NCBI RefSeq assembly: GCF_054482595.1
Contig: NZ_CM137008.1
DNA: 64,000 nt
Reading direction: 5' to 3' (one strand)
Shown here piece after piece: positions 24,001-30,000 of the stretch. Each line of letters begins with the position of its first letter. Position 1 is the stretch's first letter. The position numbers are program-made.

Positions 24001-27000
24001 GCCTGCAAAGCTATTTTGTAAAACAGCGCGATGAACTGGTTGAACTGACGGCGATGGATTCCTGGGTACTTAACCTTACCCGCAGCGTGAAATACAGTGA
24101 CGCCGACCGCGCGGAAATCCAGCGCCAGCTCACCGAGCAGTATATCAGCGACTACACCGCCACCTGGCGGGCCGGGATGGACAATCTGAATATCCGCAAT
24201 TTTGAGTCCATCGGACAACTGACCGGGGCGCTGGAGCAGGTTATCAGCGGCGACCAGCCTTTGCAGCGGGCGCTGACCGTGCTGCGTGACAACACACAGC
24301 CAGGCGTCTTTTCTGAAAAACTCTCTGCCAAAGAACGGGATGAGGCCCTGGCAGAGCCGGACTACCAGTTACTCACCCGTCTCGGGCATGAGTTCGCCCC
24401 GGAAAACAGTACCCTGGCAGTACAGAAAGACAAAGAAAGCACGATGCAGGCAGTATATCAGCAACTCACCGAGTTGCACCGCTACCTGCTGGCAATCCAG
24501 AACGCGCCTGTACCAGGGAAATCGGCGCTGAAAGCCGTGCAGTTACGGCTTGATCAGAACAGCAGCGATCCGATATTCGCCACCCGCCAGATGGCAAAAA
24601 CGCTGCCTGCTCCGCTCAACCGCTGGGTTGGCAGGCTGGCTGACCAGGCCTGGCATGTGGTGATGGTGGAGGCCGTTCACTATATGGAAGTGGACTGGCG
24701 CGACAGCGTGGTGAAACCGTTTAACGAGCAACTGGCAAATAACTATCCGTTTAATCCGCGTTCTGCACAGGATGCCTCACTGGATGCCTTCGAACGCTTC
24801 TTTAAACCGGATGGCATACTGGATACCTTCTACCAGCAGAACCTGAAGCTGTTTATCGACAATGACCTGAGTCTGGAGGATGGCGATAACAGCGTCATTA
24901 TTCGCGAAGATATTATTGCGCAACTGAAAACCGCGCAGAAAATCCGTGACATCTTCTTCAGCAAACAGAACGGTCTGGGAACATCCTTTGCCGTGGAAAC
25001 GGTATCGCTCTCCGGCAACAAACGCCGCAGCGTACTGAACCTTGACGGTCAGTTAGTCGATTACAGCCAGGGCCGTAACTATACCGCCCATCTGGTCTGG
25101 CCTAACAATATGCGCGAAGGCAACGAAAGCAAACTGACGCTGGTTGGTGCCAGCGGTGGCGCACCGCGCAGTATCAGCTTCAGCGGGCCGTGGGCGCAGT
25201 TCCGCCTGTTCGGGGCCGGACAACTGACCGGAGTACAGGATGGCAACTTTACCGTGCGCTTTAGCGTGGACGGTGGCGCGATGACCTACCGTGTGCATAC
25301 CGACACGGAAGATAACCCGTTCAGCGGTGGGTTGTTCAGCCAGTTTGGTCTGTCAGACACACTGTACTGAGGAAGCAGGGATGAATAGTAACGTACTGAC
25401 ACAAACTATCGTTACCGGCAGTGACCCGCGCGGGCTGCCGGAATTCAGCGCCATCCGCGAGGAAATAAACAAAGCCAGCCACCCGTCACAGCCTGAGCTG
25501 AACTGGAAACTGGTGGAGTCGCTGGCGCTGGCGATTTTTAAAGCCAACGGTGTGGATTTACACACCGCCACCTACTATACGCTTGCCCGGACACGGACAC
25601 AGGGACTGGCGGGATTCTGCGAAGGTGCGGAACTGCTGGCGGCAATGGTAAGCCACGACTGGGATAAGTTCTGGCCGCAGGGCGGCCCGGCGCGTACTGA
25701 AATGCTGGACTGGTTTAACTCCCGAACCGGCAATATTCTGCGTCAGCAAATCTCCTTTGCGGAATCCGACCTACCACTGATCTACCGCACAGAGCGGGCA
25801 TTGCAGCTTATCTGCGATAAGCTCCAGCAGGTGGAACTGAAGCGCGTTCCGCGCGTGGAGAATCTGCTCTATTTTATGCAGAACACGCGTAAACGGCTTG
25901 AACCCCAGCTGAAGAGTAACACTGAGAACGCCGCACAGACCACGGTCAGAACGCTGATTTATGCCCCGGAAACACAGGCATCTTCCACACCAGAAGCGGT
26001 AGTGCCTCCCCTGCCCGGCCTGCCTGAGATGAAAGTGGAAGTGCGCAGTCTGACAGAGAATCCCCCACAGGCCAGTGTGATAAAGCAAGGCAGTACGGTA
26101 AGAGGGTTTATCGCAGGGATCGCCTGTTCAGTGGCTGTCGCCTCAGCATTGTGGTGGTGGCAGGTCTATCCGGTGCAGCAGCAACTGTTACAGGTTAACG
26201 ACACCGCTCAGGGCGCAGCAACGGTGTGGATGGCCTCACCTGAACTCGAAAACTATGAGCGCAGGCTGCAACAACTTCTTGATACCTCCCCGGTACAGCC
26301 GCTGGAAACCGGGATGCAGATGATGCGTGTTGCCGACAGTCGCTGGCCGGAAAGCCTGCAACAGCAACAGGCCTCGACACAATGGAATGAGGCACTCAAA
26401 ACCCGCGCACAGAATAGCCCGCAGTTGCGTGGCTGGTTGCAGACCCGCCAGGACTTACATGCTTTTGCAGATCTAGTGATGCAGCGCGAGAAAGAGGGAC
26501 TAACCCTTTCCTATATCAAAAATGTCATCTGGCAGGCGGAGCGGGGACTGGGGCAGGAAACACCCGTTGAGTCTCTGTTGACGCAGTACCAGGATGCCCG
26601 TGCGCAGAAGCAGAATACAGATGCGCTGGAAAAACAAATTAATGAGCGACTCGAAGGCGTGTTAAGCCGCTGGCTGCTGCTGAATAATAATACGATACCG
26701 ACGATAAAAAAAGGCATTGAATTTCAATAACATTCATGAATACAAAGGAGTTTTAAATGGCGAATTTAATTTATTTAACACTAAATGGTGATAATCAAGG
26801 GCTCATTTCAAGTGGTTGTTCATCACAACCATCCATTGGAAATAAAGCTCAAACAGCACACATTGATCAAATTATGATTTATGAATTCATGCATGGATTA
26901 AATCGAGATCAAAACGTCAACCATCATCATTTGACAATAAAAAAACCTATAGATAAAGCATCACCCTTATTAGGCAAAGCAATTTGCGACAATGAATTAT

Positions 27001-30000
27001 TGACATGTGATTTTTCCTTTTATCGTACAAATAAATTTGGAATTAATGAACTGTACTATAAAATCAAATTAACTGGAGCAAAGATAAGCGACATTCATGT
27101 CTCTATATCACATATTGTTGTTGATAACAGCGTTCAACCCGAAGAGTCAGTTTCTTTCAGTTATGAGTCAATTATATGGGAGCATTGTTCCGCTGGCACT
27201 AGTGCATACAGTTTATGGGAAGATCGTCTTTTTTAAAAACATATGGGATTATTATAATGGCTAACAATATTTTACACTCTTCAACATCAGACAGTGAAAG
27301 CAAAAATACAAGCACTGACAGTACGTTATTTAATGAAAAATTCCCATTTCAACTAAGACAAGATTTCGCATCAAGAATAACAGAAGATGAAAGTGATTTT
27401 TTTAAATGGAAAAAAATAAGAGAGTTGGCATTTGTGAGCAATCATAAAGAATGGAATAAATATGACTTATTAATTTTAAAATCTGTTAATGAAATCAACA
27501 TTCATTTGTCCAGCACTCCATACTTTCAGCCGTTGGATTGGTATATAATAAAAGCCATGCTCTGGACTGAAAACGATGCGGAAAATACTTCTCAGTGGAA
27601 TGGGTATCCATTACAAATTGGTCGTTTTCGGAAAGATAAAGCGATGCCAGCCTTAATCTCTGGAGAAAAATCTACAGCCCTTGTTACCCCACCACAATGG
27701 AGAAACAAAGCATTCAATGGGTTAAAAGATCCAGAAAGAAATTACTGGGCAAAAGAACAAATAACTGGCTCTCCAGAAGAGAATATCAAAGCAGCAATTA
27801 CTTACTTAATGATGAAACTTTCTAATACAAAGGAAGAATCAACTATCGATCAATATGACTCAACTCTATATAGCGCCATTGTCCAAAAAGGCGATTTGGC
27901 TGACAACATCAGAAAAGAGAGAAAAACGACCATACCTAACTTAACGAAAAACAATCCTGGAAAAAATCTCGATAAAATACACCCGGGAGATATTTTATAT
28001 TATCAAAAAGCATCCATGAAAGTAATAATTACTGGATGGAAACCTATCACAATAAAAAATGTAGCGATGAATTATAATGGTGGTGGCGATCCCAAGTATG
28101 CAATAAAACTTCAGTTCGTTTATACATTACTCACAAAAAACAGAGTATTATGAGAATGCGAAAAATAACAATTATTCTACTGCTGACATTCTCATGTACA
28201 AAAGGTCTGGCATTTGACATTTCCATGTCTAAAGAATGTAGTGGTGTTGATGAAGTTGAATTTATTGATTGTGTTAAAAACTCATTTATTATGAGCACTA
28301 TTACACTTAAAAAAGCAGAAGCAAATATAAAAGAGAAAATTCAAAAATGGAATAGTGATGAGGACGAAGCAATAAGAAAAGAAGCAGTTATTTCTTTAAA
28401 AAGACTAGAGTCTTCTAATAGGGAATTTATACGTTACAGATTTGCTCAATGCTCTTTTACTCTAACCTGGGGGGCCAGAGTAGGGCGACTGGCATTCTCT
28501 CGGCTATATCCATGCTATACTGAGTTAAACAAAATAAGAGCCATGCAACTAAACAATGCTTACATTTCTGACTTTCAAAATCCAGATGAGATATCCAGCA
28601 AATGATTATTATAAATTTAAGATTAACATTACTATTTATACTGGCCACATTTACATATTCAGTACAATCAGACGAATTCGATGATCAAACCACTTACACG
28701 CAATACCGTTATTTTTCCACTGCTATACCGGAAGATATACGTAGATTTATGTTCTACGTAGATTATTGCTTTGTAGATTTAGCATTCGATATCGAAACTG
28801 ACTCAATGACAGCTAAGAATGATATTATTAATGAATGTACTCCATTAAAAGAAAGAAACAAGACATTAAAAGAAAAATATAAAAAAAATGAAGAGATAAT
28901 AGCAATTCTTTCCATTGCAGATGATACTATTTTAATTTATGAAGAATTAAAAAAATAACTCACATGCAATACACTGGTAATATATATTATAACTTTATAA
29001 AAACAATCATATTTACATTATAGAAATACTCAACTCCTGTTTGCTGCCACCCTAAACTACAGGCGGCAGCATAACAATAACGATTACTGGAATCGACTCA
29101 CCAAGTCTTTCACCATCGATACATATGCTTTTTGTTTCAAATTAAACAGTTGCGCTTCCGTAACATGGTCATTTGATAGTTCTTTATTGCTCGTTTTTGT
29201 AATTCCAGCCGGCGGAAAAATTACTCTCGATTCATAATTCACCGGCGACCAGGTAGCCCACTCACCTGTTGCCACATCCACCAGCGTGAAACGTACCAGG
29301 TAGCGCAGGGAGATAGCGTCAGTGAGTTTTTCATTTTTATAGTCGGACCATACTGTTGATTTCAGCGCAGAGTCATATTTTCCTGTCTGCAACATATCCT
29401 GGTAAACAATAATCGCTTTCTGATGTCCTTTTGCAGCCACAAAACGCAGTGCCTGCATCCAGTTCATATTCTCAGCACGGGCAACATCCTCGTTCTCATT
29501 TTTATCTTTGTTTTTGTTACAAGTCAGAGGCTTTTGCCTGTCCGGGATACCAGAGAATGTGGAAACAGTATAATATTTTCGCATCTCCTCCTGCATAATG
29601 GTTTCCGGTGCGCGGTTGCCGGATTGAACAAGTATTACAGGAGAATTAAGGGGAACGCGGAACTCATCTCCATCAAGCGCTGCTTGAATATCCTCTTCGG
29701 ATACGGCCAGAGTGGTTTCATTACCGAATAAATCTTTGTCTGTCAGTTGCTGGGGAGTGTTTTTATTAATATTACTTTGTGTGACTTGAGCTTTTTTCTT
29801 CTTTTCATCAATAGAAGATTCAGAGGCACATCCTGCAAGCAGCGAGAATAACACACATATGCAACAAAGCTTTTTTGAATTCATAATTGGACACTCCCTC
29901 GCCTGTCATAATGATTAGAATATTTAGCATTGATAACGGACTCTAATTATATACCCCACTTAAATAATAACAAACAAAATCAATTTGAAATATACATTCA

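What the first reader, a model, noticed from the sequence alone, without database searches (positions are those of the whole stretch)
26757..28958. AT-rich hcp-effector-immunity module at the end of the T6SS island: candidate undescribed effector/immunity system
Four translationally coupled ORFs (ATGA overlaps at 28150-28153 and 28602-28605) follow vasL. Their base composition is much more AT-rich than the core T6SS genes, which points to separate acquisition. The first is an orphan Hcp (159 aa). The second (about 299 aa from 27257) has no cysteine and no motif I can place in a known T6SS effector family; a segment WTENDAENTSQWNGYPLQIG loosely resembles a lytic-transglycosylase/lysozyme-like catalytic motif, but this is weak. 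The next two ORFs (151 and 118 aa) both start with signal-peptide-like segments, as expected for periplasmic immunity proteins. Hcp followed by a cargo effector and immunity gene(s) is an established T6SS arrangement.
Basis: partly seen in the sequence, partly recalled or inferred. Interest (0 to 1): 0.85.

Follow-up and report, generated by a model that had tools for sequence, protein, structure and literature searches.

The report
Hcp-linked cell-wall toxin with immunity genes
This is a real E. coli type VI secretion toxin–antidote module (a lysozyme-like cell-wall-cutting toxin, its periplasmic inhibitor and a second small partner protein), but the toxin–antidote pair was already published in 2026 as Etse4/Etsi4, so it is a known kind of system with only some details still open.

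Summary
Four same-strand genes follow vasL at the aspV end of the E. coli T6SS-2 island, with ATGA overlaps at 28150 and 28602. Their GC is 27–34%, against 55–57% for the core genes.

- **Gene 1** is a bona fide Hcp.
- **Gene 3** is a DUF1311/LprI-type periplasmic protein.
- **Gene 4** is a small periplasmic helical protein found only in Enterobacterales. It followed gene 3 in every cassette I examined, orphan pairs included.

The pair is not undescribed. PLoS Pathog 2026 (PMC12981562) named it Etse4/Etsi4. Residues 101–298 were toxic only when sent to the periplasm, and the DUF1311 gene rescued growth.

"Separate acquisition" is doubtful, because the same AT-rich module is syntenic in Salmonella, Citrobacter, Hafnia, Yokenella and Atlantibacter.

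Still open are the enzymatic chemistry, Hcp dependence and the role of gene 4. This strain's clpV carries a nonsense codon.

The parts
26757..27236 (+). [not shown]
   Evidence: TIGR03344 E=1e-58, 197.9 bits against a cutoff of 58.9. PGAP names it an Hcp family T6SS effector. It is 70-72% identical to the Hcp at the same position in L005, Citrobacter and Hafnia.
27257..28153 (+). Effector gene (full-length, intact etse4ori; 298 aa). It has no signal peptide and no Cys. Residues 1-45 are predicted disordered. The rest is a lysozyme/SLT-like helical domain split by a LysM insert.
27569..27571 (+). Codon GAA for Glu105, the candidate catalytic acid/base (motif KAMLWTE).
   Evidence: Invariant in 69/69 family members. 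The profile alignment puts it on the Glu of AIESGG in MltE, chain residue 47. I infer this is Glu64 of the full-length protein, assuming about 17 residues are missing from the chain's N-terminus; the PDB title of 4hjy names an MltE-E64Q variant.
27863..28006 (+). LysM-like peptidoglycan-binding insert (about residues 203-250). It lies between the NIxAxIxYL motif and the YNGGGD motif of the catalytic domain.
   Evidence: The family profile hits LysM structures at E=1.9e-22. Pfam LysM is found in 49/69 members. Foldseek matches the model's beta-alpha-alpha-beta unit to LysM structures with probability 1.0, TM 0.83 and rmsd 1.0 A. ORF2's own sequence is too divergent for the Pfam LysM HMM.
28150..28605 (+). 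Immunity gene I1 (Etsi4 orthologue). It is a DUF1311/LprI-type periplasmic protein with a signal peptide and four invariant Cys. Its start overlaps the ORF2 stop (ATGA).
28602..28958 (+). I2: a small periplasmic helical protein (118 aa) with a signal peptide and two invariant Cys. It is a conserved partner of I1, its function is unknown, and I propose it as an accessory or second immunity component.

Best explanation
This is the cargo module of the E. coli T6SS-2 "hcp island".

**Proposed mechanism.**
1. ORF2 is made in the cytoplasm without a signal peptide.
2. It is loaded onto or into the adjacent Hcp and fired into a neighbouring Gram-negative cell.
3. In the prey periplasm its LysM insert docks it on peptidoglycan.
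4. Its lysozyme/lytic-transglycosylase-like domain cleaves the glycan strands, using Glu105 as the catalytic acid. This weakens the wall.
5. Sister cells are protected by the Sec-exported DUF1311 protein (ORF3), which neutralises the toxin in the periplasm.
6. ORF4, a second exported small helical protein that always travels with ORF3 in Enterobacterales, assists or completes immunity.

**Shown by published experiment, on the identical C-terminal 198 residues.** The fragment is toxic only when targeted to the periplasm, and co-expression of the DUF1311 gene rescues growth.

**Shown here by computation.** Gene structure, family membership, fold, LysM insert, invariant residues, and the absence or presence of export signals. 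Also synteny, cassette arrays and orphan I1-I2 pairs.

**Inferred.** Hcp-dependent delivery, glycan-strand cleavage (lytic transglycosylase versus muramidase is undecided), direct I1-effector binding, and any role for ORF4.

In this particular strain delivery may be impaired, because clpV carries a nonsense codon.
For: **Locus and family.**
- Hcp identity is established.
- The window is 100% identical to E. coli XH990 over the queried segment (window 26700-29000), at the aspV/dnaQ end of the T6SS-2 cluster.
- The effector family has 361 clusters. Its consensus is LDWxxxKAMLWTESG...PMQIG..GD...NIRAGIAYL...[LysM]...YNGxGD. E105, W114, D127, Y273 and Y281 are invariant.

**Fold.**
- The AF2 model has pLDDT 87.6 and pTM 0.80.
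- The profile alignment puts E105 on the MltE catalytic Glu, and NIRAGIAYL on NISMGAAYL.
- The LysM insert is supported.

**Export signals.**
- 0 of 84 effector-family ORFs in 80 species have a hydrophobic N-terminus.
- 28 of 35 I1 ORFs and 30 of 38 alternative-immunity ORFs do.

**Neighbours.**
- The effector gene is immediately flanked by one of two signal-peptide families in 67 of 80 species.
- E-I1-I2 cassettes and orphan I1-I2 pairs form arrays downstream of hcp in Citrobacter, Atlantibacter and a metagenomic contig.
- The effector and immunity genes diverge much faster (38-45% identity) than the neighbouring hcp and vasL (72-75%).

**Other delivery systems.** Some members are fused to the DUF4157/eCIS_core N-terminal domain, a domain I recall (not tested here) as typical of eCIS-delivered toxins.

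Against: - Sequence similarity to SLT/GH23 is sub-threshold. ORF2 has no Pfam SLT hit. Only 8 of 69 relatives hit SLT at E<=0.1, and the MltE profile hit has E about 0.3.
- ORF2 has WTEN rather than the canonical ES.
- The published toxic fragment starts at Met101. It lacks the first helices of the predicted fold, so its toxicity may not need an intact catalytic domain.
- No enzymatic assay exists, and no secretion of this effector has been shown.
- Secretion of this Hcp was barely detectable in O55:H7 and absent in EHEC.
- EHEC showed no T6SS-dependent killing.
- clpV is interrupted in this window.
- Rescue was obtained with I1 alone, so ORF4 is not strictly required in that assay.
- Most family members outside Enterobacterales have no T6SS gene within 4 kb.
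Confidence: 0.72

Rival explanations
1. ORF2 is a non-enzymatic peptidoglycan-binding toxin. It kills by coating or sequestering peptidoglycan or its precursors through LysM, "preventing cell wall formation" as the 2026 paper phrases it. The lysozyme-like domain would be a degenerate scaffold.
For: - The published toxic construct (residues 101-298) lacks about 55 residues of the predicted catalytic domain but keeps LysM.
- SLT sequence similarity is sub-threshold, and the ES motif reads EN in E. coli.
Against: - Invariance across 69 diverse relatives is concentrated in the cleft motifs (E105, W114, Q120-I121-G122, D127, N176, Y183, Y273-N274, Y281), not in LysM.
- ORF2's LysM is the most degenerate part of its sequence.
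- The fold matches active glycan-cleaving enzymes.
- The truncated fragment still contains E105 and all downstream motifs.
Confidence: 0.12
2. ORF2 is a housekeeping or assembly enzyme. It would be a dedicated lytic transglycosylase that opens the producer's own cell wall so the T6SS membrane complex can be inserted. From memory, MltE does this for EAEC Sci-1 and TagX for Acinetobacter. ORF3 and ORF4 would regulate it.
For: - The fold is lytic-transglycosylase-like.
- The gene sits inside a T6SS cluster.
- A precedent for T6SS-associated wall-remodelling enzymes is TagX (paper listed).
Against: - Neither ORF2 nor any of 84 relatives has a signal peptide or lipobox, so the protein cannot reach its own periplasm.
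- It diverges rapidly compared with the core genes.
- It occurs in tandem polymorphic cassettes with orphan immunity pairs.
- Most relatives are stand-alone bicistrons far from any T6SS gene.
- Some relatives are fused to the DUF4157/eCIS_core domain.
- Published periplasmic toxicity and rescue fit a toxin.
- The gene is broken in O157:H7 while T6SS-dependent Hcp2 secretion persists.
Confidence: 0.04
3. ORF4 has nothing to do with ORF2 and ORF3. It would be an orphan immunity gene for a different, lost effector, or an unrelated small secreted protein, and is merely linked.
For: - I1 alone rescued toxicity in the published assay.
- ORF4 is frameshifted in O55:H7 and in O157:H7 with no reported consequence.
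- Non-enteric effector-I1 pairs lack it.
- It has no informative homology.
Against: - I2 follows I1 in every cassette examined: 10 of 10 from the targeted look-ups and all 3 in L085 and L091, across at least six taxa. These include three orphan I1-I2 pairs that have lost the effector (in L017 and L091), plus one pair in L009 whose I1 is only a fragment.
- The effector, I1 and I2 fall into the same sub-clades.
- Their pairwise identity matrices correlate at r=0.92-0.99. Physical linkage alone could also produce this.
Confidence: 0.3

Closest known systems
[not shown]
   Same: It is the same locus. Window residues 101-298 of ORF2 carry the same protein accession as the O157 fragment (WP_000964776.1). 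ORF3 differs from Etsi4 by a single nucleotide (G28255C in CB9615, which shares the O157 protein accession). The paper shows periplasm-specific toxicity and rescue by the DUF1311 gene, and places Hcp directly upstream.
   Different: - In EDL933 the gene is split by a TTA>TAA change at codon 74. Here it is intact (the ancestral 'etse4ori' form).
- The paper describes the protein only as a LysM peptidoglycan-binding protein. It gives no catalytic fold, active-site residue or family.
- It does not discuss the fourth gene, which is frameshifted in O55:H7 and O157:H7.
Tge1 (Tse3)/Tsi3 of P. aeruginosa and Tge2/Tgi2 of P. protegens (T6SS peptidoglycan glycoside-hydrolase effectors)
   Same: - No signal peptide on the effector, with a periplasmic immunity protein encoded next to it.
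- Small cargo-type effectors rather than VgrG or PAAR fusions.
   Different: - No detectable sequence homology.
- An inserted LysM domain.
- Immunity proteins of different families (DUF1311, or the alternative 'IB' family).
- The enzymatic product is unknown here.
Pantoea T6SS1 hcp-island lysozyme-like effector with LprI-domain immunity (Carobbi et al. 2022, PMC9796082)
   Same: The architecture matches: hcp, then a lysozyme-like effector, then an LprI/DUF1311 signal-peptide protein. Orphan LprI immunity genes are kept in the hcp island.
   Different: That case is a bioinformatic prediction only. I could not retrieve WP_090962028.1 to test whether it belongs to the same effector family. No I2-like partner is mentioned.
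Housekeeping family-1 lytic transglycosylases (MltE/EmtA, Slt70, MltD)
   Same: - They are the best structural matches.
- Shared motif logic: Glu at a helix end, then xxMQIG, NIxxGxxYL and YNxG.
- MltD, encoded in this same window at 33264-34622, also combines an SLT domain with LysM domains.
   Different: - They are Sec- or lipoprotein-exported, which ORF2 is not.
- The Pfam SLT HMM does not recognise ORF2.
- In MltD the LysM domains are C-terminal tandem repeats. Here a single LysM is inserted inside the catalytic domain.
- The housekeeping enzymes have no cognate inhibitor gene.
A. baumannii Tse4 and Tae17 (T6SS effectors with lytic-transglycosylase domains)
   Same: They are T6SS-delivered enzymes that cleave the glycan strands of peptidoglycan (papers listed).
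   Different: They are large, bifunctional effectors; Tae17 has defined VgrG-dependent delivery determinants, and that Tse4 is likewise VgrG-dependent is from my memory, not tested here. They carry recognisable SLT domains plus an endopeptidase or amidase domain. They are not Hcp-linked and have no DUF1311 immunity.

Membership tests
Hcp / TssD (TIGR03344, PF05638) | Full-length match to the Hcp family model above the curated cutoff | tested here: met
   TIGR03344 E=1e-58, 197.9 bits against a cutoff of 58.9, covering residues 1-156 of 159.
Etse4/Etsi4 effector-immunity pair (EHEC T6SS-2) | Same genes at the same locus (hcp-etse4-etsi4 next to yafT/aspV) | tested here: met
   99.7% nucleotide identity to O157:H7 and O55:H7 over 2.3 kb. 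The 198-aa product has the identical accession, WP_000964776.1, in O157 and in the 100%-identical strain XH990. Locus tags and gene order match the paper.
Etse4/Etsi4 effector-immunity pair (EHEC T6SS-2) | Periplasm-specific toxicity neutralised by the downstream gene | not testable with these tools
   Taken from PMC12981562. It was not re-tested, and the published construct is the C-terminal fragment, not the full-length protein encoded here.
GH23 / SLT lytic transglycosylase (PF01464) | Significant match to the SLT family HMM | tested here: not met
   ORF2 has no SLT hit. Among 69 relatives, none hit at E<=0.001 and 8 hit at E<=0.1, best 2.6e-3. The family profile against MltE gives E about 0.1-0.6.
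GH23 / SLT lytic transglycosylase (PF01464) | Lysozyme-like alpha-helical fold | tested here: met
   [not shown]
GH23 / SLT lytic transglycosylase (PF01464) | Conserved catalytic Glu (E-S motif) at the position of MltE Glu64 / Slt70 Glu478 | tested here: inconclusive
   E105 is invariant in 69/69 members and aligns with the Glu of AIESGG in MltE. However, that alignment is not statistically significant on its own, and ORF2 has E-N where the family consensus has E-S/T.
GH23 / SLT lytic transglycosylase (PF01464) | Non-hydrolytic cleavage giving 1,6-anhydroMurNAc products | not testable with these tools
   This needs a muropeptide analysis. The invariant Asp127 leaves open a hydrolytic, g-type-lysozyme-like mechanism.
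LysM (PF01476) | Beta-alpha-alpha-beta peptidoglycan-binding module recognisable by profile or fold | tested here: met
   The family profile against LysM structures gives E=1.9e-22. Pfam LysM is found in 49/69 relatives. Foldseek gives probability 1.0, TM 0.83 and rmsd 1.0 A. ORF2's own sequence is below Pfam detection.
Tge1-3 T6SS glycoside-hydrolase effector families | Sequence homology to Tse3, Tge2 or Tge3 | tested here: not met
   Neither Tse3 nor Tge2 chains appear in sequence or profile searches of the PDB. The similarity is at fold level only. It works like a Tge but is not a member of Tge1 or Tge2. Tge3 was not tested.
DUF1311 / LprI (PF07007) | Match to PF07007, plus a signal peptide and the conserved Cys pairs | tested here: met
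   ORF3 itself is weak (i-E 0.0026). Five of 10 orthologues score <=0.001, best 9.7e-9. PGAP names it DUF1311/LprI. There are four invariant Cys and a hydrophobic N-terminus.
T6SS Hcp-dependent cargo effector | Physical binding to, and secretion dependent on, the cognate Hcp | not testable with these tools
   The evidence is adjacency only. hcp lies immediately upstream in the window, Salmonella, L005, Citrobacter, Hafnia, Yokenella and Atlantibacter. An Hcp C-terminal fragment lies upstream in L010.

The most novel reading that the evidence does not exclude
The effector defines a large, uncatalogued fourth family of T6SS peptidoglycan glycan-cleaving toxins, with a LysM inserted inside a GH23-like domain. 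It is used as a cassette by more than one delivery system. In Enterobacterales it needs a two-protein periplasmic immunity unit: the DUF1311 protein plus the ORF4-family protein, acting as a complex or covering two modes of action. That would explain why the two are always inherited together, even as orphan pairs.
Probability: 0.3. Interest if true: 0.5.

Novelty: already known. Interest (0 to 1): 0.3.

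Why it matters
Practically, little is new. The effector-immunity pair at this locus was named and functionally tested in 2026, and the architecture (hcp island, lysozyme-like toxin, LprI/DUF1311 immunity) was anticipated in 2022.

This analysis adds four things:
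- A mechanistic hypothesis that is directly testable. The fold is lysozyme/lytic-transglycosylase-like, Glu105 is the candidate catalytic residue, and a LysM domain is inserted within the catalytic domain.
- Evidence that the protein belongs to a widespread family without a Pfam or NCBIfam model: at least 361 clusters, mostly in Burkholderiales and Enterobacterales. The family pairs with two alternative immunity families.
- A previously unremarked third gene that is strictly co-inherited with the immunity gene in Enterobacterales.
- The observation that many RefSeq records mis-annotate the intact gene as a pseudogene plus a truncated CDS.

These points matter for people cataloguing T6SS toxins and for E. 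coli strain-competition studies. They do not change how T6SS effector-immunity systems are understood.

Tried and rejected
- **ORF2 against family libraries.** Pfam and NCBIfam gave nothing.
- **ORF2 against PDB sequences.** Single-sequence phmmer gave only noise (eIF2B, dihydroorotase-like).
- **hhalign of the family profile against the SLT domain of this window's MltD.** The single-sequence template made it uninformative.
- **ORF3 and ORF4 against PDB sequences.** Noise only.
- **ORF4 fold search.** Only generic helical bundles (GGA-GAT, cofactor A, designed proteins), so no functional lead.
- **ORF4 as a divergent DUF1311.** hhalign gave probability 0.7%, so I rejected the idea.
- **ORF3's NCBIfam hit to UmoC.** 22 bits against a cutoff of 120, dismissed as sub-threshold.
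- **Promoter and terminator scan of 26400-29300.** No more sites than in shuffled sequence, so I make no claim about an internal promoter or terminator.
- **ORF2 as a cysteine-peptidase-type amidase (Tae-like).** Rejected because the protein has no Cys.
- **ORF2 as a T6SS-assembly lytic transglycosylase.** Rejected; see the rival explanations.
- **Recent horizontal acquisition by E. coli.** Rejected on cross-genus synteny and equal hcp/vasL divergence.

Full report
**1. Observation**

The window is an E. coli chromosome segment. Over the segment I queried (window 26700-29000) it is 100% identical to strain XH990, and XH990's annotated genes line up with the window coordinates upstream of it.

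Its gene order is:
- an Rhs gene, vgrG and hcp on the minus strand (window 1-6695);
- the T6SS-2 core operon tssB...tssM-vasL on the plus strand (7392-26730);
- the four genes of the finding;
- yafT, tRNA-Asp (aspV), dnaQ and rnhA.

GC is 0.27-0.34 (GC3 0.20-0.29), against 0.55-0.57 (GC3 0.62-0.66) for tssM and vasL.

ORF3 and ORF4 have hydrophobic N-termini with plausible signal-peptidase sites. ORF2 has none, and it has no cysteine.

The ORFs are real genes. All four are conserved as proteins in other genera, and the segment occurs in 364 of 5426 complete E. coli genomes.

**2. What each gene is**

*Gene 2* has no Pfam, NCBIfam or PDB sequence match. The word-indexed search found only 6 relatives. 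An exhaustive HMMER search found 361 representative clusters, 182 of them at E<=1e-10.
- A 69-sequence alignment gives the consensus LDWxxxKAMLWTESG...PMQIGNxGDPG...NIRAGIAYLL...(LysM)...GW...AxxYNGxGDxxY.
- E105, W114, D127, Y273 and Y281 are invariant.
- This follows the motif order that I recall for family-1 lytic transglycosylases (E-S, GLMQ, AYNxG).
- The family profile hits LysM structures at 1.9e-22 and MltE only weakly.
- The weak MltE alignment places E105 on the catalytic Glu of AIESGG and NIRAGIAYL on NISMGAAYL.
- Pfam finds LysM in 49/69 relatives and SLT, weakly, in 8/69.

The AlphaFold model built on this alignment is confident (pLDDT 87.6, pTM 0.80). Its N-terminal ~45 residues are disordered.
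- Foldseek sees only the LysM unit.

Formal Pfam membership fails.

*Gene 3* is a DUF1311/LprI-type protein. It is weak on its own but clear across orthologues. It has four invariant Cys and PGAP names it as such.

*Gene 4* has no match in any library. Its family has 95 clusters, and every one that carries an organism name is from Enterobacterales. The model is a signal helix plus a small helical bundle with two invariant Cys. Fold search was uninformative, and the protein is not detectably related to DUF1311.

**3. It is already described**

- pelB-directed Etse4 inhibits E. coli growth, whereas cytoplasmic Etse4 does not.
- Co-expressed Etsi4 rescues growth.
- In EDL933 a TTA>TAA change at codon 74 splits the ancestral gene ('etse4ori').

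In the window, codon 74 is TTA, so the gene is intact.

The O157 198-aa product has the same accession (WP_000964776.1) as the product annotated in XH990. The experiment therefore applies to residues 101-298 of the window protein.

The paper calls the protein a LysM peptidoglycan-binding protein. It gives no catalytic fold, and it does not treat gene 4.

A second 2026 paper also mentions the split effector.

The general pattern was predicted in Pantoea in 2022: an hcp island with a lysozyme-like effector and LprI immunity, plus orphan LprI genes. DUF1311 is cited as a T6SS immunity domain in the WHIX paper.

**4. Comparative anatomy**

The same module follows vasL-hcp in several taxa:

| Locus | Taxon | Arrangement after hcp |
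|---|---|---|
| L003 | Salmonella enterica | E, I1 (contig ends) |
| L005 | unassigned enteric | E, I1, I2, yafT |
| L018 | Hafnia | E, I1, I2, yafT |
| L017 | Citrobacter portucalensis | array of four cassettes |
| L085 | Yokenella | E, I1, I2 |
| L091 | Atlantibacter | E, I1, I2, then an orphan I1-I2 |

- All of these modules whose composition I measured (L005 and Citrobacter L017) are AT-rich next to GC-rich core genes.
- Against L005, Hcp is 72% and VasL 75% identical, but E is 39%, I1 45% and I2 38%. The module is therefore ancient in this T6SS lineage and its cargo evolves fast. That argues against recent separate acquisition.
- The Citrobacter array reads: hcp, E (truncated), I1, I2 remnant, E, I1, I2, I1, I2, I1, I2.
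- Contig L009 carries E-I1-I2, an hcp remnant, E-I1-I2, an I1 fragment and I2.
- In every cassette examined (10 from the targeted look-ups plus 3 in L085 and L091), I1 is followed by I2 or its remnant.
- E, I1 and I2 fall into matching sub-clades. Their pairwise identity matrices correlate at r=0.92-0.99. This shows inheritance as a unit, and is compatible with, though not proof of, a shared function.

Across 80 species in GTDB representative genomes, mostly Burkholderiales, the effector gene is immediately flanked as follows:

| Flanking gene | Loci |
|---|---|
| DUF1311-type gene | 32 |
| Second, unrelated signal-peptide family ('IB') | 35 |
| Neither | 13 |

- Hcp and I2 appear only in the T6SS-2-syntenic Enterobacterales loci.
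- None of 84 effector ORFs has a hydrophobic N-terminus, whereas 28/35 I1 and 30/38 IB ORFs do. This asymmetry is the signature of a trans-delivered, periplasm-acting toxin with an exported antidote. It argues against a housekeeping transglycosylase.
- Some relatives carry DUF4157/eCIS_core N-terminal domains. From memory these mark eCIS toxins, which would make the catalytic module a polymorphic-toxin cassette.

**5. Mechanism and rivals**

*Best explanation (0.72).* This is an Hcp-linked antibacterial cargo effector. It binds peptidoglycan through its LysM insert and cleaves glycan strands with a GH23-like domain, using Glu105. The periplasmic DUF1311 protein neutralises it, and ORF4 is an accessory immunity partner.
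- Shown by publication: periplasm-specific toxicity and rescue.
- Shown here by computation: fold, motifs, export-signal asymmetry and cassette behaviour.
- Inferred: Hcp loading, the bond cleaved, direct inhibition, and the role of ORF4.

*Caveats.*
- SLT similarity is sub-threshold at sequence level.
- The published toxic fragment lacks the first helices of the fold.
- Secretion of this Hcp was barely detectable or absent.
- EHEC shows no killing.
- In this window clpV has a GAG>TAG nonsense codon at 17748-17750.

*Rivals.*
- Non-enzymatic LysM toxin: 0.12.
- T6SS-assembly transglycosylase: 0.04.
- ORF4 functionally unrelated to ORF2/ORF3: 0.30. This rival concerns ORF4 only.

**6. Verdict**

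The system is an already-published member of a well-known kind. The residual new points are:
- the fold and active-site assignment;
- the size of the family;
- the two alternative immunity families;
- the conserved I2 partner.

Interest is 0.3.

Noticed in passing
window 17748-17750 (within tssH/clpV, 16932-19670): clpV carries an in-frame TAG where O55:H7 CB9615 has GAG (Glu273), and PGAP marks it 'internal stop' in XH990. The T6SS-2 of this strain may therefore be crippled or attenuated even though its effector module is intact.
   Followed up: partly
window 26713 (3' end of vasL, 25381-26730): The window has one extra G relative to CB9615. This shortens the VasL tail so that vasL no longer overlaps hcp, and PGAP calls it 'frameshifted'. 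The non-overlapping arrangement and protein length (449 aa) match VasL in L005, Salmonella, Citrobacter and Hafnia (446-451 aa). The O55/O157 version may therefore be the derived one.
   Followed up: partly
window 27257-28153; L002 3558-4454; L020 758-1654: RefSeq/PGAP annotates the intact 298-aa gene in XH990 and LH50-c as a 'partial pseudogene' (first 73 codons) plus a 198-aa CDS. It seems to be propagating the split O157:H7 gene models. This is an annotation artefact that hides the full-length effector in many genomes.
   Followed up: yes
window 28073 and 28877-28884 compared with L001 (O55:H7 CB9615): CB9615 has T>C at 28073, giving Y273H at a Tyr that is invariant in 69/69 family members. 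It also has a 1-bp deletion in the poly-A run of ORF4, which frameshifts ORF4's C-terminus. So the 'ancestral intact' O55:H7 allele used as a reference in the 2026 paper may itself be functionally altered.
   Followed up: partly
L010, L013, L015 and 35 of the loci L023-L102: A second family of signal-peptide proteins of about 130-165 aa replaces DUF1311 immediately next to the effector gene in 35 of 80 species. A typical motif is G..G.GR.CYGTL...W.T.F..C. It appears to be an uncatalogued alternative immunity family for the same toxin family.
   Followed up: partly
P0017, P0052 (family members): Some relatives of the effector carry an N-terminal DUF4157/eCIS_core domain (Pfam PF13699, 5e-31 in one member). 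Others have long unrelated N-terminal extensions of 400-620 aa. This suggests the catalytic module is reused by other delivery systems.
   Followed up: no
L009 2138-2275; L017 5216-5353: Short gene remnants lie between tandem cassettes. One is an hcp fragment matching Hcp residues 78-105. The other is an I2 C-terminal fragment. They look like recombination scars from cassette swapping in the hcp island.
   Followed up: no
L022 (E. coli PS2Canimalfeces12) 3050-4593: This strain lacks the whole T6SS-2. An IS1 element (next to a partial ISAs1 transposase pseudogene) abuts a remnant that keeps only the 3' end of ORF3 plus ORF4, next to yafT/aspV. It is an IS-mediated deletion end-point inside the immunity gene.
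   Followed up: no
window 27257-27391 (ORF2 residues 1-45): The disordered N-terminal extension contains a short motif, FPFxLRxxF...FF(K/N)W. Orthologues in L009 and Citrobacter share it, but the stand-alone ~240-aa relatives lack it. It is a candidate Hcp-binding or secretion determinant, and this is speculation.
   Followed up: no
PMC12981562 construct compared with window 27557-28153: The published toxic Etse4 construct begins at Met101, four residues before the candidate catalytic Glu105. It therefore lacks conserved W66 and D70 and three predicted helices. Its toxicity is surprising for a truncated lysozyme fold and should be re-examined with the full-length protein.
   Followed up: no
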